A model generated the notes under the pieces. The model was not told the origin of the DNA, searched no databases, and worked only from the letters and a program-made list of their open reading frames with translations. The position numbers and the translations under genes were made by a program. Of a DNA stretch of 17,947 nt, positions 1 to 17,947 are shown piece by piece. The stretch's first letter is position 1. Every line of letters begins with the position of its first letter. The stretch comes from a virus. Where the stretch lies: positions 1-17,947 of the IMG/VR virus record IMGVR_UViG_3300045988_020090; one strand, 5' to 3'.

Positions 1-26
1 TTCCCTACACGACGCTCTTCCGATCT
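1..26. other. Sequencing-adapter remnant (Illumina TruSeq universal/Read-1 adapter tail); not phage DNA
   Basis: Bases 1-26 read TTCCCTACACGACGCTCTTCCGATCT, which I recognise as the 3' part of the Illumina universal adapter. The exact reverse complement closes the window. Confidence 0.95.
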
Positions 27-60
27 GGGCCCCCAGCAGCTATCCTTTTTCCACAACTGT

Positions 61-266
61 TCTGTTGTGTGTTTTGCTATTGCTCTCTGTTCTGTGTTTT
101 TTGTTGTCGTTCTTGTTGTGCTTTTTTTGTCCCGTCTCTGGTGCTTCTTGTGTTTGCTGGCTTTTTTTCGTTGTCGTTTCTGCTTGTTGTTTTGTCTGCG
201 TTTTTTATCTCGTTGTTTTTTTATCGTTTTTTGTGTTGTTGGGTGTGTTGTGTTTTGTGGTGGTGT
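61..266 (+). other. A-depleted T/G-rich tract inside the left ITR (mirror, T-depleted on the + strand, at 17682-17887)
   Basis: My hand count finds 3 A in 206 nt (positions 79, 207, 223) and none at all in 80-206. T runs of 6-7 nt start at 97, 122, 162, 201, 216 and 227. Confidence 0.9.
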
Positions 267-300
267 ATTATGTAATTGTCAGCCAAGGAGTACGGAAAGG

Positions 301-528
301 ATGGTAGTTGAGATGACTGGTATTTCTGTTCGTTTTGAGACTGGTGAGCTGGGCGGAAAGGAGGTTCTTATCTTGCGCTATCGTCTAAGGGGGTTTGTGA
401 TTGTAAAATTCTTCACTGAAACGTATGATTCTTGTTCTGGTGAGGTTTGTTCGGCTATGGATAATATGGTGGGCTTTGTTTATCGCTTGATGGGGTTTGT
501 TTCTGAGCGTCCTGAGTACTCCTATTGA
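301..528 (+). CDS. Hypothetical ITR-encoded protein, 75 aa (left copy)
   Basis: An ATG at 301 is preceded by AAGGAG (285-290) and GGAAAGG (294-300). From MVVEMTGISVRFETGELGGKEV onward the sequence has normal protein-like composition. This contrasts with the C/F/L/V-only upstream part of ORF 67-528, which is a no-stop artefact of the A-free tract. Confidence 0.5.
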   Translation: MVVEMTGISVRFETGELGGKEVLILRYRLRGFVIVKFFTETYDSCSGEVCSAMDNMVGFVYRLMGFVSERPEYSY

Positions 529-550
529 AAAAGAGTGAAGGTGATAGATA

Positions 551-811
551 ATGTGGTGTTTTACTGTTACGCCTGATGATTTTACGGTGTTCGAGTTCAC
601 GTCTGAGTATGTGGGGTCGTATGGGCCATATCCGGCGGATACGTTTAAGAAGGCGCTGGATGGCGTGCTTGACGTTGTTCGCCATGCGTTTGACGGGTTT
701 GATGTGTATGCTGGTTTTGCTTATTCCTCGTTTGACACAAAAACGGGGTTTTTGAATGGTGTTGTTGAAGTGCGTTTGTCGTTTGAAGGGGGATTTGATG
801 ATGGCAAATGA
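551..811 (+). CDS. Hypothetical early protein, 86 aa
   Basis: First ORF after the ITR boundary. A GAAGGTGA Shine-Dalgarno at 537-544 lies 6 nt before the ATG at 551. It is co-directional and tightly packed with its neighbours. I recognise no family. Confidence 0.55.
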   Translation: MWCFTVTPDDFTVFEFTSEYVGSYGPYPADTFKKALDGVLDVVRHAFDGFDVYAGFAYSSFDTKTGFLNGVVEVRLSFEGGFDDGK

Positions 812-1043
812 TGAAGTTGTGGCTGTGGTTCCATCCAAGTTTGAGTCTGGTGATGTGTGTCTGGTGTATTGCCCTTATAATCGGACGTATGAACTGCGGT
901 ATGCGGTGCGGTCTCAGGATGGCGGCGGGCGTCGTTTGGTTTGGTCGGCTGTGACGTTTGATGCGTGTGATTATGCGCAGGTGGCTCATATGTTGGTTGA
1001 TGCGAGGGCGTTGGCTGATACGTCGTTGATTGAGAGGTGTTGA
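798..1043 (+). CDS. Hypothetical early protein, about 81 aa
   Basis: ORF 756-1043. The in-frame ATG pair at 798/801 follows GAAGGGGG (785-792) and overlaps the stop of the upstream gene (809-811), which suggests translational coupling. The start choice is uncertain. Confidence 0.5.
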   Translation: MMANDEVVAVVPSKFESGDVCLVYCPYNRTYELRYAVRSQDGGGRRLVWSAVTFDACDYAQVAHMLVDARALADTSLIERC

Positions 1044-1045
1044 TT

Positions 1046-1555
1046 ATGAAGAGCATTGATGACCGCACAAATTGGTTTGATGATGGTGTTCTGGATGATG
1101 ACCGTGTGCGCCGTGTCGTTCGTGGTCGCCGACGTAATCTGCATTTGCGTGAGTACAATAAAGGTGAGGGTGATTGGGAGACGTTTTGCCGTACTATAGT
1201 ACTGCTCAAGGACTTTTACAAGCCCCAAGGTGGTCAGGTGGCGTTTGCTGACAGTATCGAACATGCGGCGAACATTTGTCTAAGCATCTCGCCAAGTTCG
1301 TCAATGTACGCCGCATTGTCTCGAACTCAGGACATTGAAATGTTGTCCGGGCTTATTTATTGTCCGGCGATGGTGGCGTGGTGCGCGGTCTGTCATGTCA
1401 AGGGCGCGTCGTGCTATGAGATGTGCCGGACGTGGGAGGGTGATGAGTTCGCTCAGACTGTCATCAAAATTGCGTGTCTCCGTTTTGACAATCTGTCCGG
1501 CGTGCAGTATACTGATGGAGACATTACGAGAATGGCACGACAACAGCAATATTAA
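1046..1555 (+). CDS. Hypothetical early protein, 169 aa, with a Cys cluster
   Basis: ORF 1037-1555. The ATG at 1046 follows GAGAGG (1032-1037) and comes just after the upstream stop (1041-1043). It contains CPAMVAWCAVCHVKGASCYEMC, a possible metal-binding cluster. I recognise no family. Confidence 0.6.
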   Translation: MKSIDDRTNWFDDGVLDDDRVRRVVRGRRRNLHLREYNKGEGDWETFCRTIVLLKDFYKPQGGQVAFADSIEHAANICLSISPSSSMYAALSRTQDIEMLSGLIYCPAMVAWCAVCHVKGASCYEMCRTWEGDEFAQTVIKIACLRFDNLSGVQYTDGDITRMARQQQY

Positions 1556-1566
1556 GATAAGGTGGT

Positions 1567-1884
1567 ATGATTATGGCATATATTAAGCGAGCCAAGCACT
1601 ATAGCATTGTGCGCGGCGTTACGCGCAGTGAAAACGGCGAACTCGTGGACACCGAAGTAGTCGTGGATGGCGCGTGCCGCACGCCTGACATGGCTATGAA
1701 AAAAGCCCGTAAGATTAACAGGGACATGCTACCCATGTCCGCCGAGTATCATGCTCAAGCAACGCGCATGGATGAGGCAATCTATTGGGCTAATTGCGAA
1801 TTTGGGGACGATACCATCATCGACTATCCGGGGTCGGTTAACGGCAACGTGGTTGAAGATGATATCATCTCCGAGGAAAAATAA
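1567..1884 (+). CDS. Hypothetical early protein, 105 aa, acidic C-terminus (p6-like only by position and size)
   Basis: AAGGTGG (1559-1565) precedes the ATG at 1567. The C-terminus is VVEDDIISEEK. It sits directly upstream of the SSB candidate, as phi29 gene 6 precedes gene 5 in the direction of transcription. I detect no sequence similarity. Confidence 0.55.
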   Translation: MIMAYIKRAKHYSIVRGVTRSENGELVDTEVVVDGACRTPDMAMKKARKINRDMLPMSAEYHAQATRMDEAIYWANCEFGDDTIIDYPGSVNGNVVEDDIISEEK

Positions 1885-1914: not shown

Positions 1915-2352
1915 ATGGCTGACAACGAACTGACCGTAATGAACGGCAACAATTTTGCGGCTAACGGCGCTAACGCCGTATCCCATTTCTTTAACACTGA
2001 CACTATGGATGGCAAAATGGCGCTCTATAACGCCATGCAGACCGCCGACAAGGTAGACGAACATCTTAATGAGCCATTGCATGTGACCAACGTGCTTGCG
2101 CAGGCCATCGAGGTTGCCAACCAAGAGACCGGTGAAATCAACTCATCTACCCGTGTCGTTATCCACGCGGAAGAGGGCGATTTCGCCGCCGCCTCCCCCA
2201 CGCTGGCACACGCTTTCGGTAATCTGTTCGCGATTTTCGGCACGCCGGACACGTGGGACCATCCGCTTGTCCTCAAGGTGGTGGAAAAGAAGAGCCGCCG
2301 TGGATTCAAGTTCTTCGACCTTGAACTAGTGTCGGAAAAAGACCGTGGATAG
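1915..2352 (+). CDS. Candidate single-stranded DNA-binding protein (phage ORF34/Phage_SSB-like), 145 aa
   Basis: AAGGAAAGG lies upstream of the ATG at 1915. The layout resembles phage SSBs of the lactococcal ORF34 type as I remember them: N-terminal NELT..NG, a central V.V....E.....GE core, and a C-terminal FGTPDTWDHPL..V....SRRGFKFFDLELV. Its position matches phi29 gene 5. This is unverified recollection. Confidence 0.4.
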   Translation: MADNELTVMNGNNFAANGANAVSHFFNTDTMDGKMALYNAMQTADKVDEHLNEPLHVTNVLAQAIEVANQETGEINSSTRVVIHAEEGDFAAASPTLAHAFGNLFAIFGTPDTWDHPLVLKVVEKKSRRGFKFFDLELVSEKDRG

Positions 2353-2416
2353 AATATTTGTCTATACCATATGATAGCATGGCAATGTCCCTATAGGGAT
2401 GTTGCCGCCAAACTCA

Positions 2417-2457
2417 CCCCTCGCCGTTTTTTCATCCTTGCGGCGAGGGGTGTTTTA
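2417..2457 (+). terminator. Hairpin with a short T run after the SSB candidate (preceded by a second imperfect hairpin at 2381-2406)
   Basis: CCCCTCGCCG (2417-2426) pairs with CGGCGAGGGG (2441-2450) across a 14-nt loop and is followed by TGTTTTA. GGCAATGTCCCTA/TAGGGATGTTGCC (2381-2406) pairs with two G-U wobbles. Confidence 0.5.
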
Positions 2458-2476
2458 CACTCATAAGGGGGAGGCA

Positions 2477-3421
2477 GTGGCAAAACGTAAAACCAACCGA
2501 CGCGCCAACAATCTGAAACGCAACGCCGCAATCAGGTCGGCACAGGTACGCCGAGAGCAAGCGGTCAGGGATTACAGTACCGGACATCTCCCCAAGCAAA
2601 TCACCGAAACGTTTCTCGGAAAACTCAGCGCCCAACAGCTCGAACAGGTTGCCCGCCGCGTCGGACAGGAATTCGGGGAACAACAGCAAGCCTTGAAGGC
2701 CAGAGATAACGAGCCGTATCAGGTTGTCCCAGATGTGCATATTACGAAACTCGATAGGGAGTTAGCGGCGCGCCCGTTGATTACCGACGCGGAAATCGCC
2801 GCCGCCCCGTCGAAACGTCGGAAGACGTTACGACAGCAACAGCGCCGCCGCATCGAGGTGCGGCAGAAAATCAAACGCGCCCAACAATTCGACGCATTGA
2901 GCATGGCCTGCTACACGGTGGGCGAAATACGTGAAATGGAACGCGCGGGAGAATCCCCGTTTGACGTGTTGGGTACTCATACGGTTGGCGGTTCGGCGCG
3001 CGACGAACTCACACGCAACCGTGCGAACGTGTTCGGCTCGGAGCGCGGCATAAGCCACGCGCGTATGATGATACGAGAGGGAGGCAGGAGGGGACTTGAA
3101 CGTGAGATACTCGAATACGCCGGGCTTATAGGCCGAGCGCCATTACAGGCAGGAGCTAGGCAAATCTCGGGAAGTGAGGGGGTTTCGGATTTTGATAGGG
3201 TCTCGCAACAGCTTGAAGCGTTCGACTCCAACATCGCCCAGAAATTCGCGTCTTTGTCGAACCGTCAAAAACGATGGCTGATAAACAACACGAACTTCAG
3301 CACCGTTGTGCGGGAAGCCTCATGGTATAATGATAAAACACATAAATGGGAGACAAAAGCGGATGCAGGCGATGTAGAGACACGACTTGACGAATGGATG
3401 ACCAGCGCGGCACGACACTAA
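2477..3421 (+). CDS. Candidate terminal (priming) protein, 314 aa
   Basis: ORF 2399-3421. I prefer the GTG at 2477, which follows AAGGGGGAGG (2466-2474), because the longer version would read through the 2417-2450 hairpin. The N-terminus is strongly basic (AKRKTNRRANNLKRNAAIRSAQVRRE) and there is a second basic patch (SKRRKTLRQQQRRRIEVRQKIKR). It lies immediately upstream of the protein-primed polymerase, as phi29 gene 3 does. I see no sequence similarity to phi29 TP. Confidence 0.45.
   Translation: MAKRKTNRRANNLKRNAAIRSAQVRREQAVRDYSTGHLPKQITETFLGKLSAQQLEQVARRVGQEFGEQQQALKARDNEPYQVVPDVHITKLDRELAARPLITDAEIAAAPSKRRKTLRQQQRRRIEVRQKIKRAQQFDALSMACYTVGEIREMERAGESPFDVLGTHTVGGSARDELTRNRANVFGSERGISHARMMIREGGRRGLEREILEYAGLIGRAPLQAGARQISGSEGVSDFDRVSQQLEAFDSNIAQKFASLSNRQKRWLINNTNFSTVVREASWYNDKTHKWETKADAGDVETRLDEWMTSAARH
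3323..3331 (+). promoter_or_regulatory. Perfect extended -10 box TGgTATAAT, about 105 nt upstream of the polymerase start
   Basis: It reads TGGTATAAT at 3323-3331. There is no good -35 (TTGTGC at 3306-3311 is too close). It is one of only two TGnTATAAT matches I found on the + strand, and both precede gene starts. Confidence 0.3.
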
Positions 3422-3436
3422 AAAAAGGATGGAATT

Positions 3437-4897
3437 ATGCGAGAGCGTCGAGCGGCGGCAACAGACGGCGCAACACTCTTGACGGATGACGGCATGGAAC
3501 CATTGACGGCGAACGCCGTCATCCGGCTTACCATGTTCGACTATCATACGCGCGTATGGTGTGCCCATGGGTGGCAGGATATTAAGCCCATAGCCGCCGA
3601 ACTGTTGAAACGACTCCCCTTGCAATCGAATCCAGCCAAGGATGGTGTGTGGGGCACATTTAATATTCGCGGCCACTTCTATAGTTTCCGTGTACGCATG
3701 GGCGGTATCGCCGTGGATTTTGTGGATGTGCGTAATGTCACGCGTGATGATGGCTTGAATGTTTCACGTGAAACATTTGGAGGAACCACCGACTTGGAAA
3801 CCACGTGGAATATCGCGCAGGAATGCGCCGCGCTGAAACTCAGGGGCACGACCATAGCATCAATGGCAATGACCGACTATATCGATGGGGATTACGCCGG
3901 ATTCAAACGTCATTTTCCACCATTGGATAAAGAGGTTTATCATCGGATGCGCCCCGCCTACTATGGGGCGATAGTGTCCAGCAAGCCGGGCGAGTACCGG
4001 GATTGCCGAAGCTGGGATGTAAACAGTCTCTACCCGAGTATCATGCGCGACGCCCCCATGCCGGTAGGCTCGCCAATATGGTACGGCGGGGAATATCAAT
4101 ATGACCCTGATTATCCGCTCCATATCGATGTCATTGCATTTGATGCAAGGTTGAAAACGGGGAAAACGGCGACGCTCACCAATATTCTGCCCGTATGGGG
4201 GTATGAGGGCGAACGTTTGGATAGTACGCTGGGCGTCGTTACCATGCCCGTCACGGATGTGGATTGGGAAACGCTGACCGAAAACTACGATATTCACGTG
4301 TGGGAGCATGTCGGCGGCTGGAAGTTCCGTAAATCGCATGGACTTTATTACACCTACGTTGATAAATGGTTTCACGTGAAACAAACCGCAACCGGAGAGC
4401 GCAGGCAGATGGCGAAACTGTTATTAAACTCACTGGTAGGGAAATTCGGGGCCTCGCTCTACCGGCCCATGTTGCATCCAAAACCGTCTGCGGATGGTGG
4501 CGTGGATTTTACCGTGGACAAACCCGAGTCGGCTAACAGTCTGGCATGGTTGCCGACCGCCGCATATGTCAACGCCTACGGGCGACGAATATTGTCCCGG
4601 GCGATGAACGCGAACGCCGACCGCGTACTCTACGCCGATACCGATGGCATGATATTGGAAGGGTTGGCCGCGCCCTCAGGTATCGAAACGGATGACCGGA
4701 AACTAGGGGCGTGGAAAAACGACCATACCTACGAGAAGCTCCGTATCCTCGGCAATCGCAAATACTGCGGCGTGGAAACAGACGGCGACACCGTCATGCG
4801 TCTGAGCGGCGTGCACCGTGCCGCCCCCATCCCCTATGATGAGTTTCTTCCGGGGGCGCGTCATCTCAATGATGATGGCCACACTTTTATGCTATAA
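3437..4897 (+). CDS. Protein-primed family-B DNA polymerase (phi29 gp2-like), 486 aa
   Basis: - Motif A is WDVNSLYPSIM (D194 at nt 4016).
- Motif B is KLLLNSLVGKFG (K327).
- Motif C is LYADTDGMIL (nt 4631 onward).
- A KxY-like motif is GNRKYCG.
- Long colinear matches to remembered phi29 sequence include FPPLDKEV.. against FPTLSLGLDKEV.., PVGSPIWYGGEYQYDPDYPLHI against PYGEPIVFEGKYVWDEDYPLHI, and KLGAWKNDHTYEKL against KLGYWAHESTFKRA. Confidence 0.93.
   Translation: MRERRAAATDGATLLTDDGMEPLTANAVIRLTMFDYHTRVWCAHGWQDIKPIAAELLKRLPLQSNPAKDGVWGTFNIRGHFYSFRVRMGGIAVDFVDVRNVTRDDGLNVSRETFGGTTDLETTWNIAQECAALKLRGTTIASMAMTDYIDGDYAGFKRHFPPLDKEVYHRMRPAYYGAIVSSKPGEYRDCRSWDVNSLYPSIMRDAPMPVGSPIWYGGEYQYDPDYPLHIDVIAFDARLKTGKTATLTNILPVWGYEGERLDSTLGVVTMPVTDVDWETLTENYDIHVWEHVGGWKFRKSHGLYYTYVDKWFHVKQTATGERRQMAKLLLNSLVGKFGASLYRPMLHPKPSADGGVDFTVDKPESANSLAWLPTAAYVNAYGRRILSRAMNANADRVLYADTDGMILEGLAAPSGIETDDRKLGAWKNDHTYEKLRILGNRKYCGVETDGDTVMRLSGVHRAAPIPYDEFLPGARHLNDDGHTFML
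3758..3777. repeat. 20-bp perfect palindrome AATGTTTCACGTGAAACATT (copy 1 of the GTTTCACGTGAAAC motif)
   Basis: Read directly and self-complementary over all 20 nt. It lies inside the polymerase gene and encodes NVSRETF. Confidence 0.9.
4369..4382. repeat. 14-bp perfect palindrome GTTTCACGTGAAAC (copy 2)
   Basis: Read directly. It lies inside the polymerase gene but in a different codon phase from copy 1 (tgg ttt cac gtg aaa caa = WFHVKQ). Confidence 0.9.
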
Positions 4898-4898
4898 T
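4890..4898 (+). promoter_or_regulatory. Perfect extended -10 box TGcTATAAT overlapping the polymerase stop codon
   Basis: It reads TGCTATAAT at 4890-4898, and the polymerase TAA is at 4895-4897. The -35 is weak. The predicted start near 4905 would transcribe the structured spacer and possibly the late genes. Confidence 0.4.
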
Positions 4899-4904
4899 AT
4901 CCGG

Positions 4905-5064
4905 TAGCGGGGTGTGCGTCCCAAGTCGATTCGATGGCCCGACCGTAAGGCAAGTCGGTAAGGCGATTCGGTCGGATGTAGACGTGCGTAGCCAGCGCCC
5001 AGCGACGGCAAGGGAACCCGCACAGCCTAGCAAACCGGCATGACGGCGTGATTGCCGTCATGCC
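4905..5064 (+). ncRNA. Candidate structured RNA (packaging pRNA analogue, or the 5' leader of the late operon)
   Basis: - This is a 187-nt gap with no ORF.
- An 11-bp perfect stem joins GGCATGACGGC (5037-5047) to GCCGTCATGCC (5054-5064) with loop GTGATT.
- A 7-bp stem joins CCGACCG (4939-4945) to CGGTCGG (4969-4975).
- Tandem 13-mers are TAAGGCAAGTCGG and TAAGGCGATTCGG (4946-4971).
- A tandem pair is CCAGCGC/CCAGCGA (4992-5005).
- GACGGC occurs twice (5004, 5042), and both copies are complementary to GCCGTC (5054). Confidence 0.3.
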
Positions 5065-5084
5065 ACTGACTTTAAGAGGTGATT

Positions 5085-5423
5085 ATGGACGATACCGAGG
5101 ACACCGAGCCGGACACCACGCCAGACGCCGAGCCGGACACGACCGCCGACGACAATACGCCGAACCCGGAGCTTGAAACGCAGGACAATGGCGAACCGGA
5201 GGATGCGGGCGACGACAAGGACGCCGACATGGCCAACCGTCTCAGCGCTTTGGAAGCGACCGTAGCGGAACTCTCCAAAACCATTGAGGCGATGCGCGAC
5301 GCCGCAGCCGACCACGTGCTGAACGATGGCCCGGACGGCGACACGACGCCGGAATCGGCTGAAATGACAGACGATGACTACAACGGCACTTACAGTACGT
5401 TCGATGATTTGTTTGAAGACTAA
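5085..5423 (+). CDS. Putative scaffolding protein (phi29 gp7-like by position), 112 aa
   Basis: AAGAGG (5074-5079) lies 5 nt before the ATG at 5085. The protein is very acidic (DDTEDTEPDTTPDAEPDTTADD...), with a central helical-looking segment (ANRLSALEATVAELSKTIEAMRDAAA). It is small and directly upstream of the capsid gene. Confidence 0.5.
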   Translation: MDDTEDTEPDTTPDAEPDTTADDNTPNPELETQDNGEPEDAGDDKDADMANRLSALEATVAELSKTIEAMRDAAADHVLNDGPDGDTTPESAEMTDDDYNGTYSTFDDLFED

Positions 5424-7182: not shown

Positions 7183-7188
7183 TATGAT

Positions 7189-7216
7189 GAGAGGGTGGCC
7201 GGTTGGCTACCCTCTC
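7189..7216 (+). other. Hairpin 1 of the post-capsid spacer
   Basis: GAGAGGGTGGCC (7189-7200) pairs with GGCTACCCTCTC (7205-7216). The stem is 12 bp with one G-U and the loop is GGTT. No T run follows. Confidence 0.7.
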
Positions 7217-7238
7217 TCACGGTGTGATGCGATACAAG

Positions 7239-7271
7239 GCCCGGAGCGCAAGCCACGTGAGCGCTCCGGGC
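7239..7271 (+). other. Hairpin 2 of the post-capsid spacer (loop contains CACGTG)
   Basis: GCCCGGAGCGC (7239-7249) pairs with GCGCTCCGGGC (7261-7271). The stem is 11 bp and the loop is AAGCCACGTGA. Confidence 0.7.
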
Positions 7272-7304
7272 ACTGTGACAGTCGCCTAATCTGCGATATA
7301 ATAA

Positions 7305-7340
7305 AAGGGAGTGTTTCACGTGAAACACTCCCTTCTTTAT
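7305..7340 (+). terminator. 30-bp perfect palindrome with a T-rich tail; terminator and/or operator (copy 3 of the GTTTCACGTGAAAC motif)
   Basis: AAGGGAGTGTTTCAC/GTGAAACACTCCCTT (7305-7334) is perfectly self-complementary and is followed by CTTTAT. The core GTTTCACGTGAAAC is at 7313-7326. A TATAAT hexamer sits at 7287-7292, just upstream. Confidence 0.65.
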
Positions 7341-12230: not shown

Positions 12231-13706
12231 ATGTCCACAACACAGCACACCGGACACTACAATCTGCCGACGTTTGGAGATAATCCGAACGACCGTCCGT
12301 CATGGCGTGGCGATTTCACCGACGCAATGACGAAAATCGATAATCAGATGTACGCCAACGCGACCAACATCACCACGGCGACGGCGGCGGCGAACAACGC
12401 GACCACGGCGGCGAGCAAGGCAGCCGAGACGGCGGGCGGCGCACAGTCCACAGCCGATGACGCCGTGGCCCGATTGGACGCGCTCGGCGCAACCGGCAAT
12501 ACGGCGGCAGGTCAGCTTAAAACCAAGATCGACACCACGTCCACCGGGCTGAATGCGGTGAAATCCGACCTCAGCGTCTTCAAGACCTCCACCAATGGGA
12601 ATATTGCCTCATTGCAGAGCAAGAATACGGAAATCGAGAATAATTTAACCAGTATCACTTCATCGGTTCACGCCAACACAACCGGCATAACGGGCATTGA
12701 AGCGAATTTGAACGCGCTTCACGCCGATTCCACCACTAACGCGGCAACGCTATATAACACCATTCAGAACAGTTCTCGTGTTCTTGGCGTTAATCAGCCG
12801 TTCGTGTCTCGCGGCTCAAATATCATCGTGACTTTTGGTGATTCCTACGCCGACACCACGAACACTAGAAGCTGGGCATACATGCTCGCTCAAAAGCTGG
12901 GGTGGACGTTGCATAATTACGCAAAAAGCGGTGCCGGATACATCAGTCCGAACACCACTTACATGAGCGAGTTCAGCACAGCCAAGGCGGATACGTCCTA
13001 TGATCATGATGATGTATCGTTGGTGGTCATTGGAGGCTCTCGTAACGGCAACGACGGGTATTCGGGGACAGTCAAAACAGCCGCGCTGGAACTGTTTCAA
13101 GGAGTAAGCGGTGAATATCCCAATGCGCGAATCATCGCGGTACCGTTGCTATGGGATAAAACCCCGGTGTCAGGGTATTGGCGTTATAACGCCGCAAGCA
13201 TTGACGAGGCGGCGATACTGGCCGGAGTGGAATCCATACCGTGGGCATGGACGTGGAATCTTGGACGCGAAAACGCATTCGATAGTGAGAATATCCACCC
13301 CAACGAGCTGGGTACCAACGTCATCGTAAACTATATCATGCGATACATGCTCGGCGCGTACAATGGCCGACATGAGGTGTTCGTGTGGCGACCCGAGTCA
13401 AACCCTGCGGAATTTGTTCTTACCGTGGACGCAAGCGCGGGAACTATCTCATATGGTCTGTCGGTGGCGGGAGACGTCACGCCAGCGAAGTACACGGACG
13501 TGAGCGGACTGCCAATGTGGGCGTGGAACGCGTCGGATGAGACAAATCAGGGGCGGGCGTGGGTGGCGTCCATCACCAACGGCGCTACAAACACAACACT
13601 GTTCAAAATTGGCACTGACGGCCATTTTGGATGGCAGGGTTACACGACCAACCCCACGGCAACCCCTAACGGATTGGCTGGAGCGCAATTTACCAGAGCG
13701 TGGTAA
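12231..13706 (+). CDS. Tail fibre / appendage protein with an SGNH (GDSL) hydrolase domain, 491 aa
   Basis: - The N-terminal fibre-anchor-like motif is HYNLPTFGDNPNDRPSWRGDFTDAMTKID.
- A long A/T/N-rich coiled region follows.
- SGNH block I is IIVTFGDSYAD (Ser codon at 12843).
- Block III is VVIGGSRNGND.
- Block V is DSENIHPNELG (His codon at 13296). Confidence 0.75.
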   Translation: MSTTQHTGHYNLPTFGDNPNDRPSWRGDFTDAMTKIDNQMYANATNITTATAAANNATTAASKAAETAGGAQSTADDAVARLDALGATGNTAAGQLKTKIDTTSTGLNAVKSDLSVFKTSTNGNIASLQSKNTEIENNLTSITSSVHANTTGITGIEANLNALHADSTTNAATLYNTIQNSSRVLGVNQPFVSRGSNIIVTFGDSYADTTNTRSWAYMLAQKLGWTLHNYAKSGAGYISPNTTYMSEFSTAKADTSYDHDDVSLVVIGGSRNGNDGYSGTVKTAALELFQGVSGEYPNARIIAVPLLWDKTPVSGYWRYNAASIDEAAILAGVESIPWAWTWNLGRENAFDSENIHPNELGTNVIVNYIMRYMLGAYNGRHEVFVWRPESNPAEFVLTVDASAGTISYGLSVAGDVTPAKYTDVSGLPMWAWNASDETNQGRAWVASITNGATNTTLFKIGTDGHFGWQGYTTNPTATPNGLAGAQFTRAW

Positions 13707-16518: not shown

Positions 16519-17328
16519 ATGGATGATATCACATGGGTAGGGTCCCCCAACCACTACAACGGGCGCAACGGCCACACCATAAGCCACATCACACTACATA
16601 TCATGGTCGGCACCCTAGCTGGCACCGACAGCGTTTTTCAACGCACCGGATACGCTTCGGCCCACTATGGCATCGGAGGCAACGGCGAGATACACCAGTA
16701 TGTGAGCGAGAGTGACGGCAGTTGGAGCGACGCGAACTATGCGAGCAACAACAGCACCGTAAGTATCGAGCACGAAGGCGGCATGACCGGAGTGCCTTGC
16801 ACACGCGCATGTATGGACGCTTCGGCCCGCCTGTGCGCCGATATCGCACGCCGTCAAAACTGGGACCACCTGTGGTACGACGGACTCAACGGTAACATCT
16901 GGCTACACCGCGAAATACCCGGAACCGACCACGCCGGATGTCCCGACCTCGCACCCAACGGACTTGACGTAAACTACGTCATCAACAAAGCAAACCAACT
17001 ACTCACACAAGGAGCAGATATGCCAGTCAAAACAGACCCCATCAACTGGTACGGACAAAACGTCACCGTCGAATACGCATTACAAGACCTGACTCACCGA
17101 ATTGACGCACTCGCCGCCCGACTCGGCCCCATCTCGGAAAAATACCCGTTCGACTACCTGCCCGCCATTCTGAACAACATCGAAAGCACCTATCTCGCTG
17201 TCAACGGTCTCAAACCCGACAACGGGAAAGAACTAACCAACGAACAGGTGGGCAAGCTAGCCGACAGCCTCAAAACCAGCCTCGGCCAGCAAGTGGCCGC
17301 AGAGCTCGCCAAACGACTCAACAACTAA
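16519..17328 (+). CDS. Endolysin, N-acetylmuramoyl-L-alanine amidase (Amidase_2/PGRP type) with an uncharacterised C-terminal region of about 100 aa, 269 aa
   Basis: AGGAAG precedes the ATG. The pattern is typical of Amidase_2: NHYNGRNGHTISHITLHIMVG, SAHYGIGGNGEIHQYVSESDGSWSDANYASNNSTVSIEHEG and HREIPGTDHAGCPD (His/His/Cys zinc ligands). I see no recognisable wall-binding repeat in the C-terminal third. Confidence 0.87.
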   Translation: MDDITWVGSPNHYNGRNGHTISHITLHIMVGTLAGTDSVFQRTGYASAHYGIGGNGEIHQYVSESDGSWSDANYASNNSTVSIEHEGGMTGVPCTRACMDASARLCADIARRQNWDHLWYDGLNGNIWLHREIPGTDHAGCPDLAPNGLDVNYVINKANQLLTQGADMPVKTDPINWYGQNVTVEYALQDLTHRIDALAARLGPISEKYPFDYLPAILNNIESTYLAVNGLKPDNGKELTNEQVGKLADSLKTSLGQQVAAELAKRLNN

Positions 17329-17335
17329 CACACAC

Positions 17336-17371
17336 AAAAAGCCTCTAGGCATATAGCCTAGGGGCTTTTTT
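17336..17371. terminator. Rho-independent terminator, potentially bidirectional
   Basis: AAAAA is followed by GCCTCTAGGC (17341-17350), which pairs with GCCTAGGGGC (17356-17365) with one G-U, and then by TTTTTT (17366-17371). The A tract on one side and T tract on the other let it serve both strands. Confidence 0.8.
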
Positions 17372-17401
17372 CTATATCTTAGCTCAAAACTCCTGCTCAG
17401 A

Positions 17402-17921
17402 TATCACCTTCACTCTTTTTCAATAGGAGTACTCAGGACGCTCAGAAACAAACCCCATCAAGCGATAAACAAAGCCCACCATATTATCCATAGCCGAACA
17501 AACCTCACCAGAACAAGAATCATACGTTTCAGTGAAGAATTTTACAATCACAAACCCCCTTAGACGATAGCGCAAGATAAGAACCTCCTTTCCGCCCAGC
17601 TCACCAGTCTCAAAACGAACAGAAATACCAGTCATCTCAACTACCATCCTTTCCGTACTCCTTGGCTGACAATTACATAATACACCACCACAAAACACAA
17701 CACACCCAACAACACAAAAAACGATAAAAAAACAACGAGATAAAAAACGCAGACAAAACAACAAGCAGAAACGACAACGAAAAAAAGCCAGCAAACACAA
17801 GAAGCACCAGAGACGGGACAAAAAAAGCACAACAAGAACGACAACAAAAAACACAGAACAGAGAGCAATAGCAAAACACACAACAGAACAGTTGTGGAAA
17901 AAGGATAGCTGCTGGGGGCCC
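17402..17921. repeat. Right inverted terminal repeat (ITR), 520 bp
   Basis: Exact reverse complement of 27-546 (position p pairs with 17948-p). Confidence 0.92.
17420..17647 (-). CDS. Hypothetical ITR-encoded protein, 75 aa (right copy, identical to 301-528)
   Basis: This is the mirror image of 301-528 within the right ITR. It is the only plausible minus-strand gene in the window and it reads inward toward the 17336-17371 terminator. Confidence 0.5.
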   Translation of the reverse strand: MVVEMTGISVRFETGELGGKEVLILRYRLRGFVIVKFFTETYDSCSGEVCSAMDNMVGFVYRLMGFVSERPEYSY

Positions 17922-17947
17922 AGATCGGAAGAGCGTCGTGTAGGGAA
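17922..17947. other. Sequencing-adapter remnant (reverse complement of the same adapter)
   Basis: Bases 17922-17947 read AGATCGGAAGAGCGTCGTGTAGGGAA, the reverse complement of 1-26. Confidence 0.95.

What the first reader, a model, noticed from the sequence alone, without database searches (positions are those of the whole stretch)
61..266. Nearly adenine-free 206-nt tract on the 5'-ending strand of each terminus
- Positions 61-266 contain 3 A (79, 207, 223), and 80-206 contain none in 127 nt. The tract is mostly T with G and C, and it carries six T6-T7 runs.
- By ITR symmetry, the strand whose 5' end carries the terminal protein is A-free at both genome ends, and the 3' template strand is T-free.
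- One consequence can be read directly. No stop codon is possible on either strand, which explains the stack of fake ORFs in the track.
- A second consequence is that no palindromic site containing A/T can exist there.
- Possible meanings: an unstructured displaced strand for SSB loading; an array for a p6-like end-binding protein; an extreme product of deamination bias on the strand that stays single-stranded longest; or a U-rich 5' leader for the ITR gene.
- I know of no description of such a tract in phi29-like phages.
Basis: seen in the sequence. Interest (0 to 1): 0.65.

Follow-up and report, generated by a model that had tools for sequence, protein, structure and literature searches.

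The report
Adenine-free phased T-run array at phage ends
The almost adenine-free stretch at both ends of this small Bifidobacterium phage is real: it is a regularly spaced array of T-runs next to the replication origin, and its composition fits a mutation pressure (A to G, C to T) on the DNA strand expected to be peeled off as a single strand during replication.

Summary
Positions 61-266 hold T123 G53 C27 A3, and 80-206 is A-free; both are mirrored in an exact ITR.

The window is a complete phi29-like, protein-primed phage genome from the gut Bifidobacterium group. It carries 26 nt of Illumina adapter at each end and lacks the true terminal ~12 nt.

The tract lies between the conserved terminus and a conserved -10 element, so it is not a leader. 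Two layers explain it.

1. **Composition.** Fourfold-degenerate sites within ~1.2 kb of both ends are G+T-rich on the 5'-ending strand whatever the gene orientation.
   - Polarised substitutions in 36 related ends show A>G and C>T running 4-5 times their complements in the tract, decaying to parity by ~1-1.5 kb.
   - Seven related lineages are hypermutated genome-wide with the same polarity, switching strand ~4 kb from the right end.
   - Four other actinobacterial phi29-like phages show the same terminal skew; Streptococcus phage Cp-1 does not.

2. **Architecture.** T-runs sit on a 13.0-bp lattice, the strongest periodicity in the genome. Relatives differ in length by ~24.5-nt quanta. ORF 1567-1884 has a weakly supported phi29 p6-like fold and occupies the p6 position.

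I infer a p6-type nucleoprotein platform whose A·T tracts survive only with T on the exposed strand.

The parts
1..26 (.). Illumina TruSeq adapter remnant, not phage DNA. The mirror copy is at 17922-17947.
   Evidence: Sequence read. In relatives the genome begins AAAAGGAGGGGAGGG..., and in L010 an adapter abuts AAAAGG directly. The window lacks those ~12 nt.
27..115 (+). Conserved terminal block, the presumed replication-origin region. It contains the first lattice T-run (46-50) and overlaps the outer part of the tract.
   Evidence: Multiple alignment of 25 distinct ends: dense conservation over about the first 100 nt, and variable with indels further in.
61..266 (+). The reported tract: T 60%, G 26%, C 13%, A 1.5%. 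It is non-coding and lies upstream of the first promoter.
   Evidence: Pooled over 23 related ends the equivalent tract is A 5%, C 14%, G 24%, T 57%.
46..256 (.). Phased T-run (A·T-tract) lattice with a period of 13.0 bp (26-27 bp double unit). Run centres lie at 48, 73.5, 99.5, 125, 165, 191.5, 203.5, 219, 229.5 and 254.5.
   Evidence: For the window tract z = 12.7, and 0 of 100 dinucleotide shuffles reach its peak power. The six strongest TT/AA periodicity windows in the whole genome are all in the ITR tract at period 13.00. TRF reports periods of 27, 26, 14 and 12.
224..275 (+). Conserved promoter block, with a -10-like TATTAT at 266-271. It is shared even with BD811P2 and BP1, whose DNA polymerase is only ~36% identical.
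301..528 (+). First early gene (75 aa), inside the ITR. Its Shine-Dalgarno sequence AAGGAG is at 285-290. The mirror copy is at 17420-17647 on the minus strand.
   Evidence: No family hit.
301..1555 (+). Left-end coding zone that shares the skew. Fourfold sites are G+T-rich, fading by ~1.5 kb.
   Evidence: Genes 301-1043 have A 2-4 and C 3-5 against G 7-23 and T 14-22 at fourfold sites.
1567..1884 (+). Candidate p6-like double-stranded-DNA-binding protein (105 aa, acidic tail), immediately upstream of the SSB, terminal-protein and polymerase genes.
   Evidence: The AF2 model has pLDDT 75. Foldseek finds named p6 and dsDNA-binding proteins of phi29-like phages with TM 0.5-0.58, and phi29 p6 entry 8pw4 as the only meaningful PDB hit. 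There is no detectable sequence similarity.
1915..2352 (+). phi29-type single-stranded-DNA-binding protein.
   Evidence: PF17427 at 1.5e-14 and phrog_6243.
2399..3421 (+). Presumed terminal protein, assigned by position and size only.
   Evidence: It sits directly upstream of the polymerase gene, as in phi29, Av-1 and Cp-1. No family hit.
3437..4897 (+). Protein-primed family B DNA polymerase.
   Evidence: PF03175 at 1.8e-33 and phrog_1907 at 3e-55.
16519..17328 (+). Amidase (endolysin) gene. Its fourfold sites show the mirror skew (A 35, C 65, G 18, T 11) although it is coded on the + strand.
17682..17887 (-). Mirror copy of the tract in the right ITR. It is A-free on the minus strand, which is the 5'-ending strand at that end.

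Best explanation
The tract is the non-coding spacer of the inverted terminal repeat. It lies between the terminal replication origin and the first early promoter of a phi29-like, protein-primed Bifidobacterium phage. It has two superimposed properties.

1. **Architecture (anatomy shown, function inferred).** It is a degenerate tandem array in which T4-T7 runs, which are A·T tracts in the duplex, recur on a 13-bp lattice (26 bp double unit) for ~210 bp. I infer that this is the nucleation and wrapping platform for the phage's p6-like protein (ORF 1567-1884). In phi29, p6 binds one monomer per 12 bp in A/T minor grooves near the ends, opens the terminus for TP-polymerase initiation and controls the end-proximal early promoter.

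2. **Composition (pattern shown, chemistry inferred).** In protein-primed strand-displacement replication, as established for phi29, the 5'-ending strand at each end is displaced first and copied last. That strand accumulates A>G and C>T changes, as deamination of adenine to hypoxanthine and cytosine to uracil would produce, plus purine>T transversions. The bias peaks in the non-coding tract next to the terminus and decays over ~1-1.5 kb. In unconstrained DNA this drives A to ~1-6% and lowers C. The C's that remain sit at preferred phases of the 13-nt unit.

Thymine carries no amino group. Orienting every A·T pair with T on the exposed strand is therefore the only arrangement of A·T tracts that this pressure cannot erode. 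That would explain why the array is T-runs only and adenine-free.
For: **Genome type.**
- PolB PF03175 and phi29-type SSB PF17427.
- Exact ITR.
- The terminus AAAAGG... directly abuts sequencing adapters in relatives.

**Position of the tract.** It lies upstream of a -10 block that is conserved across 25 ends and in BD811P2 and BP1.

**Mutational layer.**
- Fourfold sites are G+T-rich on the + strand at the left end and A+C-rich at the right end, although both sets of genes are on the + strand.
- The same polarity appears in BD811P2, BadAztec1, Av-1 and Voltaire, including in genes of opposite orientation.
- Lineage-specific changes in 36 ends, per site on the 5'-ending strand:

| Distance from terminal motif | A>G vs T>C | C>T vs G>A |
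|---|---|---|
| 60-250 nt | .179 vs .033 | .198 vs .047 |
| 1000-1500 nt | .043 vs .044 | .064 vs .031 |
| 1500-2500 nt | .044 vs .043 | .058 vs .041 |

- In the tract, G>T is .053 against C>A .009, and A>T is .041 against T>A .004.
- In the window's own lineage, all 5 changes in the tract are toward G or T.
- Windows of 150 nt with A+C at or below 12% occur only within ~400 nt of ends, and always on the 5'-ending strand.
- Seven hypermutated lineages show the same polarity genome-wide, with a strand switch at ~13-14 kb.
- In L046 a right-end gene has been converted base by base to G and T only.
- The phi29 literature already notes long single-stranded intermediates, cytosine deamination in them, and a phage UDG inhibitor (PMC4974454).

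**Architectural layer.**
- The 13.0-nt periodicity is the strongest in the genome and appears in 20 of 24 related tracts.
- TRF reports periods of 26-27, 14 and 12.
- The terminus-to-promoter distance falls into classes of 182-185, 231-235, 256-259 and 280 nt.
- ORF 1567-1884 has a p6-like fold, size, acidic tail and gene position.
- p6 properties come from PMC4974454 and PMC10899789.
Against: **Against the mutational layer.**
- Excluding the most hypermutated ends (L046R and both L039 ends), counts of A>G against G>A (25 vs 37) and C>T against T>C (51 vs 60) in the tract are balanced. The composition is therefore stationary, and stationarity alone cannot separate mutation bias from selection on composition.
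- The majority-rule pileup for the right end (16519-17400) did not show the asymmetry, at low coverage.
- The skew is concentrated in the terminal ~1-1.5 kb rather than falling linearly to mid-genome. In hyper lineages the strand switch lies at ~75% of the genome, not 50%. The simple two-origin model does not predict either.
- Transitions cannot explain why the tract is 73% pyrimidine.
- Per-site A>G equals C>T (5.6% vs 6.0%). From my own knowledge, spontaneous adenine deamination is far slower than cytosine deamination, so the chemistry is not settled.
- Cp-1 shows no such skew, so the effect is not a general result of protein-primed replication.

**Against the p6 layer.**
- There is no sequence similarity to p6 (hhalign probability 0.5%).
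- Foldseek E-values are weak (5e-3 to 0.26) and the model is of moderate confidence.
- The periodicity is 13 bp, against 12 bp in phi29 and 11 bp in GA-1.
- Related tracts are homologous, so their shared periodicity is not independent evidence.
- Periodicity and unit-sized indels also arise from plain repeat slippage.
- No binding data exist.
Confidence: 0.6

Rival explanations
1. Pure mutational by-product. The tract is an unconstrained minisatellite-like spacer. Strand-specific A>G and C>T pressure sets its composition, and replication slippage of a ~25-nt unit sets its periodicity and length classes. It has no role beyond spacing the origin from the promoter.
For: - The tract has the highest per-site substitution rates of all bins.
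- It carries frequent indels and length classes, including a tandem duplication of 25 nt in L026.
- None of the window's three A's is conserved even among its closest relatives.
- The folding energy equals that of shuffles.
- Fourfold sites nearby show the same A and C depletion.
Against: - The 13-bp phase coherence is maintained over ~210 bp, from the conserved terminus to the promoter, despite rapid substitution.
- The lattice starts inside the conserved terminal block, at 46-50.
- The remaining C's are concentrated at two phases of the unit.
- The phage encodes a p6-like protein, whose known relatives need such periodic A/T signals near the ends.
Confidence: 0.25
2. Selected composition of the displaced strand. 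The tract is kept free of A and poor in C for one or both of two reasons:
- so that the strand that stays single-stranded longest has no secondary structure and loads SSB cooperatively;
- so that it offers few deaminable bases and therefore few targets for host base-excision enzymes, which would break the single strand and lose the terminus.
For: - Both strands of the tract are essentially structure-free as single strands, at -1.2 and -1.6 kcal/mol for 206 nt.
- A phi29-type SSB is encoded.
- The phi29 literature states that excision of uracil from single-stranded intermediates would cause loss of terminal regions, and that phi29 carries a UDG inhibitor for this reason (PMC4974454).
- No A/T palindromes or GC palindromes occur in the A-free run.
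Against: - The lack of structure is no greater than the composition alone gives (z = 0.02 and -0.30).
- The same skew reaches fourfold sites of genes 1 kb inside the genome, and spreads through whole genomes in hypermutated lineages. Selection on terminal strand structure cannot act there.
- Relatives tolerate 10-21 A's in the tract.
- This reading does not explain the 13-bp lattice.
Confidence: 0.1
3. U-rich 5' leader or small RNA. The tract is transcribed as an untranslated leader of the ITR gene, or as a packaging RNA.
For: A gene with a Shine-Dalgarno sequence follows at 285-301. phi29-like phages need a pRNA, and none was located in this genome.
Against: - The conserved -10-like element lies at 266-271, at the inner edge of the tract.
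- No sigma-70-like promoter match lies upstream of the tract.
- No Rfam family matches there.
- The strand has almost no folding potential, which does not fit a pRNA.
Confidence: 0.03
4. Assembly or library artefact. The low-complexity T/G sequence was attached to contig ends by the assembler or by the library chemistry.
For: Adapter sequence is present at both ends of the window and in several relatives. Several public records of relatives are truncated or mis-joined at the ends.
Against: - Homologous tracts occur in the same place in at least 25 distinct ends from several metagenome datasets (one search lists seven or more dataset accessions among the contig names).
- They lie between a conserved terminus and a conserved promoter, with ordinary point differences among them.
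- The tract lies inside the contig, flanked on the outer side by ~35 nt of ordinary conserved terminal sequence.
Confidence: 0.02

Closest known systems
phi29 protein p6 nucleoprotein complex at the genome ends (PMC4974454; PMC10899789)
   Same: - A small early protein (~104 aa, acidic tail) is encoded next to the SSB, TP and polymerase genes.
- It binds periodically, one monomer per 12 bp and one dimer per 24 bp (11 bp in GA-1), in A/T minor grooves.
- It nucleates 46-125 bp from the ends, opens the terminus and represses an end-proximal early promoter.
- Here there is a 13/26-bp A·T-tract lattice starting 46 nt into the window and running to the ITR promoter, together with a protein of p6-like fold in the same gene position.
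   Different: - The period is 13 bp, not 11-12 bp.
- The signal here is an overt array of T6-T7 runs, whereas phi29 is described as having a subtle bendability pattern.
- The array lies inside a ~520-bp ITR, whereas the phi29 ITR is 6 bp.
- There is no sequence similarity to p6 and no binding data.
Strand compositional asymmetry of animal mitochondrial DNA under strand-displacement replication. The G+T-rich heavy strand and the gradients of A>G and C>T with time spent single-stranded are from my own knowledge. Reviews PMC3269012 and PMC3269014 were seen as abstracts only.
   Same: - The strand exposed as a single strand becomes G+T-rich through A>G and C>T changes.
- The effect is visible at fourfold sites.
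- It grades with position along the genome.
- It is independent of transcription direction.
   Different: - Here the genome is linear and (by analogy with phi29) has two origins, so the polarity flips between the ends.
- The gradient is much steeper, acting over ~1-1.5 kb.
- In the non-coding tract A is the most depleted base, whereas in mitochondria C is.
- Some lineages show episodic genome-wide hypermutation.
Uracil in phi29 single-stranded replicative intermediates and the UDG inhibitor p56 (PMC4974454)
   Same: Both involve a protein-primed, strand-displacement mode of replication, which is documented for phi29 and inferred here. Cytosine deamination in the displaced strand is recognised as a hazard, especially for terminal regions.
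   Different: The phi29 work concerns lesion tolerance. To my knowledge it does not report an evolutionary compositional footprint. No p56 homologue was looked for here.
APOBEC3B editing of adenovirus during strand-displacement replication (PMC9934312)
   Same: A protein-primed linear dsDNA virus whose displaced strand is proposed as a substrate for deamination.
   Different: That case involves an enzyme, affects C>T only and shows a TC context preference. Here A>G and C>T are equally frequent and there is no TC preference. No deaminase has been identified.

Membership tests
phi29-like protein-primed replication module | Family B DNA polymerase of the protein-primed type | tested here: met
   PF03175 at 1.8e-33 and phrog_1907 at 3.2e-55 for 3437-4897.
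phi29-like protein-primed replication module | phi29-type SSB | tested here: met
   PF17427 at 1.5e-14 for 1915-2352.
phi29-like protein-primed replication module | Terminal protein gene adjacent to the polymerase gene | tested here: inconclusive
   A 340-aa ORF at 2399-3421 occupies the right position but has no Pfam or PHROG hit.
phi29-like protein-primed replication module | Linear genome with inverted terminal repeats and a reiterated terminal base that allows sliding-back | tested here: met
   Exact ITR. Relatives start with 5'-AAAA directly abutting adapters. The window itself lacks these bases.
phi29-like protein-primed replication module | Protein covalently bound to the 5' ends | not testable with these tools
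   This needs biochemistry on virion DNA.
p6-type origin nucleoprotein platform | A phage protein with the p6 fold | tested here: inconclusive
   - The AF2 model has pLDDT 75 and a topology like p6 (PMC10899789).
- Foldseek probabilities are 0.93-1.0 and TM scores 0.5-0.58 to named p6 and dsDNA-binding proteins and to PDB entry 8pw4, but E-values are only 5e-3 to 0.26.
- hhalign finds no sequence similarity.
p6-type origin nucleoprotein platform | Periodic A/T (bendability) signal of about one monomer spacing, starting within ~50-130 bp of the ends | tested here: met
   The 13.0-bp T-run lattice runs from 46 to 256. The known spacings are 12 bp in phi29 and 11 bp in GA-1.
p6-type origin nucleoprotein platform | Demonstrated periodic binding and stimulation of initiation | not testable with these tools
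   This needs footprinting and in vitro replication.
Replication-associated strand asymmetry (single-strand exposure type) | G+T excess on the strand expected to be exposed, seen at fourfold-degenerate sites | tested here: met
   for the window. for BD811P2, BadAztec1, Av-1 and Voltaire.
Replication-associated strand asymmetry (single-strand exposure type) | Polarity follows the replication geometry, not the transcription direction | tested here: met
   - Left-end genes and the right-end amidase are both on the + strand but show opposite skew.
- Minus-strand genes in BD811P2, BadAztec1 and Voltaire follow the end, not the gene.
- In hyper lineages the strand switch lies inside a block of + strand genes.
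Replication-associated strand asymmetry (single-strand exposure type) | Excess of A>G and C>T over their complements in polarised substitutions | tested here: met
   The cruder majority-rule pileup of the right end was not consistent with this.
Replication-associated strand asymmetry (single-strand exposure type) | Gradient proportional to the time spent single-stranded | tested here: inconclusive
   The skew decays monotonically from the ends. However, it is steeper than linear, and the switch point lies at ~75% of the genome. Exposure times were not measured.
5' untranslated leader | Lies downstream of the promoter of the gene it precedes | tested here: not met
   The conserved -10-like element is at 266-271, at the inner edge of the tract. 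No promoter match lies upstream.
Tandem repeat (minisatellite) | Head-to-tail copies recognisable by sequence | tested here: met
   TRF finds 66-130 with period 27 (2.4 copies, 76% matches) and 183-241 with period 26 (2.3 copies, 75% matches). The copies are degenerate.

The most novel reading that the evidence does not exclude
Gut Bifidobacterium phi29-like phages undergo episodic, strand-specific hypermutation of the displaced strand, with A>G and C>T equally frequent. About 9% of sampled lineages are affected (7 of 78). In the extreme case a terminal gene has been rewritten to G and T only. This would be a natural bacterial-virus counterpart of the editing hypermutation seen in animal viruses. 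The cause would be a host single-strand DNA deaminating activity, a repair deficiency, or loss of a phage protective function. The adenine-free, T-run-only origin array would then be the evolved form of a p6 platform that deamination cannot erode. The position of the strand switch (~13-14 kb of 17.9 kb) would be a direct readout of where the two replication forks meet in vivo.
Probability: 0.3. Interest if true: 0.85.

Novelty: new variant of a known kind. Interest (0 to 1): 0.66.

Why it matters
If this reading is right, sequence data alone would yield three things:

- **A replication footprint.** The data give an evolutionary record consistent with strand-displacement replication in a tailed phage: which strand is exposed, how far in from each end the effect reaches, and where the polarity flips. 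For this kind of question, phi29 biology has relied on in vitro work and electron microscopy.
- **A constraint on origin design.** A mutation pressure strong enough to erase one base from ~200 nt limits how replication origins and promoters can be built there. That would explain why the A·T tracts are all oriented the same way.
- **A testable protein-DNA pair.** ORF 1567-1884 and a 13-bp T-run lattice can be used to extend the p6 nucleoprotein model outside Bacillus phages.

There are practical consequences too:

- The ends of these abundant gut phages are routinely truncated or mis-joined in public records.
- The tract creates stacks of false ORFs.
- Hypermutated lineages can mislead phylogeny and species clustering.

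Tried and rejected
- **Nucleotide search in isolated phages.** Megablast of the whole window found only a 490-bp match, at 81% identity, to BD811P2. A sensitive blastn search with the ITR found nothing. The tract has no close counterpart among isolates.
- **Rfam on the whole window.** Nothing matched in the ITR and no pRNA was found.
- **Promoter scan.** No sigma-70-type match lies in or upstream of the tract. The promoter was inferred from conservation instead.
- **Folding.** The tract has no structure on either strand and does not differ from shuffles. There is therefore no evidence for selected structure, or for selected absence of structure.
- **First two regular expressions for the terminal motif.** They were too strict and found only 9 ends. 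This was corrected, which found 36.
- **Majority-rule pileup polarisation.** It saturated in coding DNA and gave the opposite trend at the poorly covered right end. It was replaced by triplet polarisation.
- **Helical-repeat phasing and a strict 24-bp period.** Neither 10.5 bp nor 24 bp is present (z = -2.9 and -1.8). The period is 13 bp.
- **PZA as a Bacillus comparison.** The RefSeq record appears to have the early region in a non-natural orientation (judged from my own knowledge of the phi29 gene map). It was not used.
- **Cp-1.** No terminal skew; its ITR is A-rich.
- **Sequence-profile comparison of ORF 1567-1884 with PZA p6.** No similarity was found.
- **Sequence context of hypermutation.** No APOBEC-like or other strong motif appeared.
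- **Transcription-associated mutation as the cause.** Rejected, because the polarity flips within co-oriented genes.
- **A nucleotide-pool or polymerase-fidelity gradient as the cause.** I considered this, but it would need fidelity to change over kilobases. It was not tested.
Full report
**1. The observation**

The counts are exact. Positions 61-266 hold T 123, G 53, C 27 and A 3, with the A's at 79, 207 and 223. Positions 80-206 are A-free for 127 nt, and 224-266 for another 43 nt. The next-longest A-free run outside the repeats is 34 nt. With 25.7% A in the genome, chance is excluded: about 4e-17 for any given 127-nt stretch (my arithmetic from the counts).

The two ends are exact reverse complements for 546 nt. 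The strand that ends 5' at either terminus therefore carries the A-free tract.

Positions 1-26 and 17922-17947 are Illumina TruSeq adapter. In 36 related ends the genome begins 5'-AAAAGGAGGGGAGGG(G/C)CCCCAGCAGCT..., and in L010 an adapter abuts AAAAGG directly. The window is thus a complete genome minus ~12 terminal nt at each end.

Not even a GC-only 4-mer palindrome occurs in 80-206.

**2. What the genome is**

All genes lie on the + strand except the right-hand copy of the ITR gene. The replication genes are:

| Coordinates | Product | Evidence |
|---|---|---|
| 3437-4897 | Protein-primed family B polymerase | PF03175, |
| 1915-2352 | phi29-type SSB | PF17427, |
| 16519-17328 | Amidase | |

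The nearest isolates are Bifidobacterium phages BD811P1, BD811P2, BD811P3 and BP1. They share only ~36% polymerase identity with the window. More than 130 close relatives exist in IMG/VR, with 92-98% portal identity among the 80 retrieved.

**3. Where the tract sits**

An alignment of 25 distinct ends shows three zones:
- a conserved terminal ~100 nt;
- a variable spacer with indels;
- a strongly conserved block, TTTTTTGTGTTGT.GGGYGTGTTGTG..TTTTGTGGTGTGGTATTATGTAA.

The last block is window 224-275, with a -10-like TATTAT at 266-271. A Shine-Dalgarno sequence and the first gene (301-528) follow it. The block is recognisable even in BD811P2 and BP1.

The tract is therefore origin-proximal spacer plus promoter-upstream DNA. 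It is not a transcribed leader.

**4. The composition is a family trait**

Pooled over 23 ends the tract is A 5%, C 14%, G 24% and T 57%. A-free runs reach 151 nt in L039, 137 nt in L065 and 134 nt in L011.

The window's clade is at the extreme, with 2-5 A's; other clades carry 10-21. None of the window's three A's is conserved among its nearest relatives.

Across all related loci, 150-nt windows with A+C at or below 12% occur only within ~400 nt of an end. They are always on the 5'-ending strand.

**5. The skew is mutational and follows the ends, not transcription**

*Fourfold-degenerate sites in the window.* Genes 301-1043 have A 2-4 and C 3-5 against G 7-23 and T 14-22. The effect fades by ~1.5 kb. 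The right-end amidase is also coded on the + strand, yet shows the mirror image: A 35, C 65, G 18, T 11.

*Fourfold-degenerate sites in other phages.* Four other actinobacterial phi29-like phages behave the same way, including for genes of the opposite orientation. The figures are the G+T fraction on the + strand.

| Phage | Left end | Right end |
|---|---|---|
| BD811P2 | .88-.64 | .23-.13 |
| BadAztec1 | .70 | .24 |
| Av-1 | .84 | .21 |
| Voltaire | .78 | .16 |

Streptococcus phage Cp-1 shows nothing of the kind, and its ITR is A-rich.

*Polarised substitutions.* I counted lineage-specific changes in 36 ends, taking a change as derived when the two nearest relatives agree against the focal sequence. 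Rates are per site on the 5'-ending strand.

| Distance from terminal motif | A>G | T>C | C>T | G>A |
|---|---|---|---|---|
| 60-250 nt | .179 | .033 | .198 | .047 |
| 250-600 nt | .076 | .023 | .125 | .038 |
| 600-1000 nt | .069 | .034 | .085 | .032 |
| 1000-1500 nt | .043 | .044 | .064 | .031 |
| 1500-2500 nt | .044 | .043 | .058 | .041 |

Purine>T transversions are also asymmetric in the tract: G>T .053 against C>A .009, and A>T .041 against T>A .004. This helps explain the pyrimidine excess, which transitions cannot create.

*Caveat.* Excluding the most hypermutated ends (L046R and both L039 ends), the raw counts of opposite changes in the tract are balanced. The composition is therefore stationary, and that balance alone does not prove mutation over selection.

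**6. Hypermutated sister lineages show the process directly**

Seven of 78 loci (L076, L046, L029, L079, L039, L043, L015) carry a large excess of A>G and C>T on the + strand over the left ~75% of the genome. In the right ~3-4 kb the excess lies on the minus strand.

Pooled ratios along the genome:

| Position | A>G / T>C | C>T / G>A |
|---|---|---|
| Left end | 8 | 27 |
| ~13-14 kb | ~1 | ~1 |
| 16-17 kb | 0.23 | 0.11 |

The switch lies inside a run of co-oriented genes, which rules out transcription as the cause.

In L046 the ~200 nt next to the right-end tract contain no A and one C. In a purine/pyrimidine alphabet this stretch aligns to a normal gene of L024, so that ATGAAAAATGATAATGGCGTGGTCACG has become GTGTGGGGTGGTGGTGGTGTGGTTGTG. 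The alignment scores 83 against a null maximum of 50. The conversion stops at the terminator hairpin.

Most ORFs of these lineages remain open. The changes show no strong sequence context, and A>G (5.6% of sites) is as frequent as C>T (6.0%).

The phi29 literature describes long single-stranded replicative intermediates, cytosine deamination in them, the danger this poses to terminal regions, and a phage UDG inhibitor (PMC4974454).

The inference is that the 5'-ending strand, displaced first and copied last, is the target. Deamination as the chemistry is plausible but not shown.

Two features remain unexplained by the simple model:
- The asymmetric switch point. It might reflect co-directional versus head-on encounters with transcription; that is my speculation.
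- The steepness of the terminal gradient.

**7. The tract is also a phased array**

TT dinucleotides and T-runs recur every 13.0 nt.
- The window tract has z = 12.7, and 0 of 100 dinucleotide shuffles reach its peak power.
- In 20 of 24 related tracts the best period is 12.75-13.25.
- In a scan of the whole genome, the six strongest TT/AA periodicity windows all lie in the ITR tract at period 13.00. Their power is 12-19, against a genome median of 5.1.
- T-run centres at 48, 73.5, 99.5, 125, 165, 191.5, 203.5, 229.5 and 254.5 all fall at 7.5-9.5 modulo 13. One further run, centred at 219, falls at 11.
- TRF reports periods of 27, 26, 14 and 12.
- The remaining C's concentrate at two phases of the unit.
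- Among relatives, the distance from the terminal motif to the -10 falls into classes of 182-185, 231-235, 256-259 and 280 nt. These are quanta of ~24.5 nt.

Mutation bias alone cannot create such a lattice.

**8. A candidate partner protein**

ORF 1567-1884 (105 aa, acidic C-terminal tail) sits directly upstream of the SSB, putative TP and polymerase genes. phi29 gene 6 occupies that position relative to its own SSB, TP and polymerase genes (my knowledge of the phi29 gene map). The ORF has no Pfam or PHROG hit, and all its homologues are within this phage group.

- An AF2 model (pLDDT 75) has the strand-hairpin-strand-helix-strand-short helix-tail order described for phi29 p6 (PMC10899789).
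- Foldseek against viral models returns proteins annotated as p6, histone-like or double-strand-binding proteins of phi29-like phages. Probability is 1.0, TM 0.5-0.58 and E 5e-3 to 3e-2.
- Against the PDB, the only meaningful hit is phi29 p6, entry 8pw4 (probability .93, TM .54, E .26).
- Profile comparison finds no sequence similarity.

The assignment is therefore suggestive, not established.

Published properties of p6:
- One monomer binds per 12 bp, or 11 bp in GA-1.
- It contacts A/T minor grooves.
- It nucleates 46-125 bp from the ends.
- It unwinds the terminus.
- It represses an end-proximal early promoter.

The array here matches that description in position and kind, with a 13-bp spacing.

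**9. Synthesis**

The best reading combines both layers. A p6-type platform needs periodic A·T tracts beside the origin. The local mutation pressure removes A and C from the exposed strand. An A·T tract with T on that strand is the only orientation the pressure cannot erode. The result is an adenine-free array of T-runs.

My confidence:
- ~0.8 that the A and C depletion is driven by strand-specific mutation;
- ~0.45-0.5 that the array is a p6-like binding platform;
- ~0.6 for the combined statement, which is a looser, overall rating.

The main rival is that the array is a functionless slippage-prone spacer. Selection for a structure-free or lesion-proof displaced strand cannot be excluded, but it explains neither the lattice nor the skew inside genes.

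**10. Novelty**

Replication-linked strand asymmetry and p6 origin complexes are both known kinds. I found no description of a terminal skew this extreme, of hypermutated phage lineages with a strand switch, or of an overt T-run lattice at a protein-primed origin. I classify the finding as a new variant of known kinds, with a more novel reading (episodic displaced-strand hypermutation) left open.

Noticed in passing
window 1-26 and 17922-17947: Both contig ends are Illumina TruSeq adapter. The true terminal ~12 nt (AAAAGGAGGGGA in relatives) are missing, so the genuine ITR is 27-546 plus those bases.
   Followed up: yes
L046 (rc of right end, nt ~100-425 from the end); also L076, L039, L079, L029, L043, L015 genome-wide: Seven related lineages are strand-specifically hypermutated (A>G and C>T), with a polarity switch at ~13-14 kb in window coordinates. 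In L046 a terminal gene has been converted to G and T only, up to the terminator hairpin.
   Followed up: partly
L082 (BP1, PQ571273) 1-291 and its right end: The GenBank record of Bifidobacterium phage BP1 carries a full-length TruSeq adapter at ~220-291, preceded by a duplicated internal segment. The true left terminus starts at 292, and the right end appears truncated by ~90 nt.
   Followed up: partly
L001 (BD811P2, NC_073478) 1-55 and 17773-17827: The RefSeq record starts inside the conserved promoter block (TTTTTTGTGTGGTATGATG). By homology with the window family and BP1 it probably lacks the terminus and a T-rich tract. Its annotated ITR is only 55 nt.
   Followed up: partly
relatives' tracts, e.g. 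L009, L014, L026, L042 (~150-210 nt from the terminal motif): A motif (T)AATTTAAGCGCGTAG occurs twice, ~25 nt apart, in one tract type. It is absent from the window's type. It may be a binding site or a unit variant of the array.
   Followed up: no
window 52-69: A small hairpin-capable inverted repeat, CACAAC-TGTTCT-GTTGTG, lies in the conserved terminal block. It is partly conserved in relatives.
   Followed up: no
window 5094-5155 and 12371-12446: The longest T-free runs in the interior (62 and 76 nt) are low-complexity coding segments rich in Asp, Thr, Glu and Pro, or in Ala, Thr and Asn. They are ordinary and unrelated to the terminal tract.
   Followed up: yes
window 4898-5078, 7183-7338, 17329-17419: No packaging RNA was detected by Rfam anywhere in the genome. 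These three are the only non-coding gaps longer than 60 nt between the listed genes. The first two are candidate sites for a divergent pRNA, and the third holds the bidirectional terminator.
   Followed up: no
window 551-811 and 798-1043; left 1.5 kb in general: The small early genes overlap. They are G+T-skewed even at first and second codon positions, and they are mosaic among relatives.
   Followed up: no
L086 (PZA, NC_001423) 1-~5000: The RefSeq record lists the early genes 6 to 1 on the same strand as the late genes. From my knowledge of the phi29 map, the left early segment appears inverted relative to the natural genome. The record is unsuitable for strand-asymmetry analysis.
   Followed up: no
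L087 (Cp-1) 1-236 and the whole genome: Streptococcus phage Cp-1 has an A-rich, G-poor ITR (A 100, T 73, C 48, G 15) and no terminal skew at fourfold sites. The terminal G+T skew was seen in all the actinobacterial phi29-like phages examined, but not in this one.
   Followed up: partly
L026 left end, ~48-72 nt from the terminal motif: A 25-nt tandem duplication of an array unit lies within the otherwise conserved terminal region. It shows that the array changes by whole units.
   Followed up: partly
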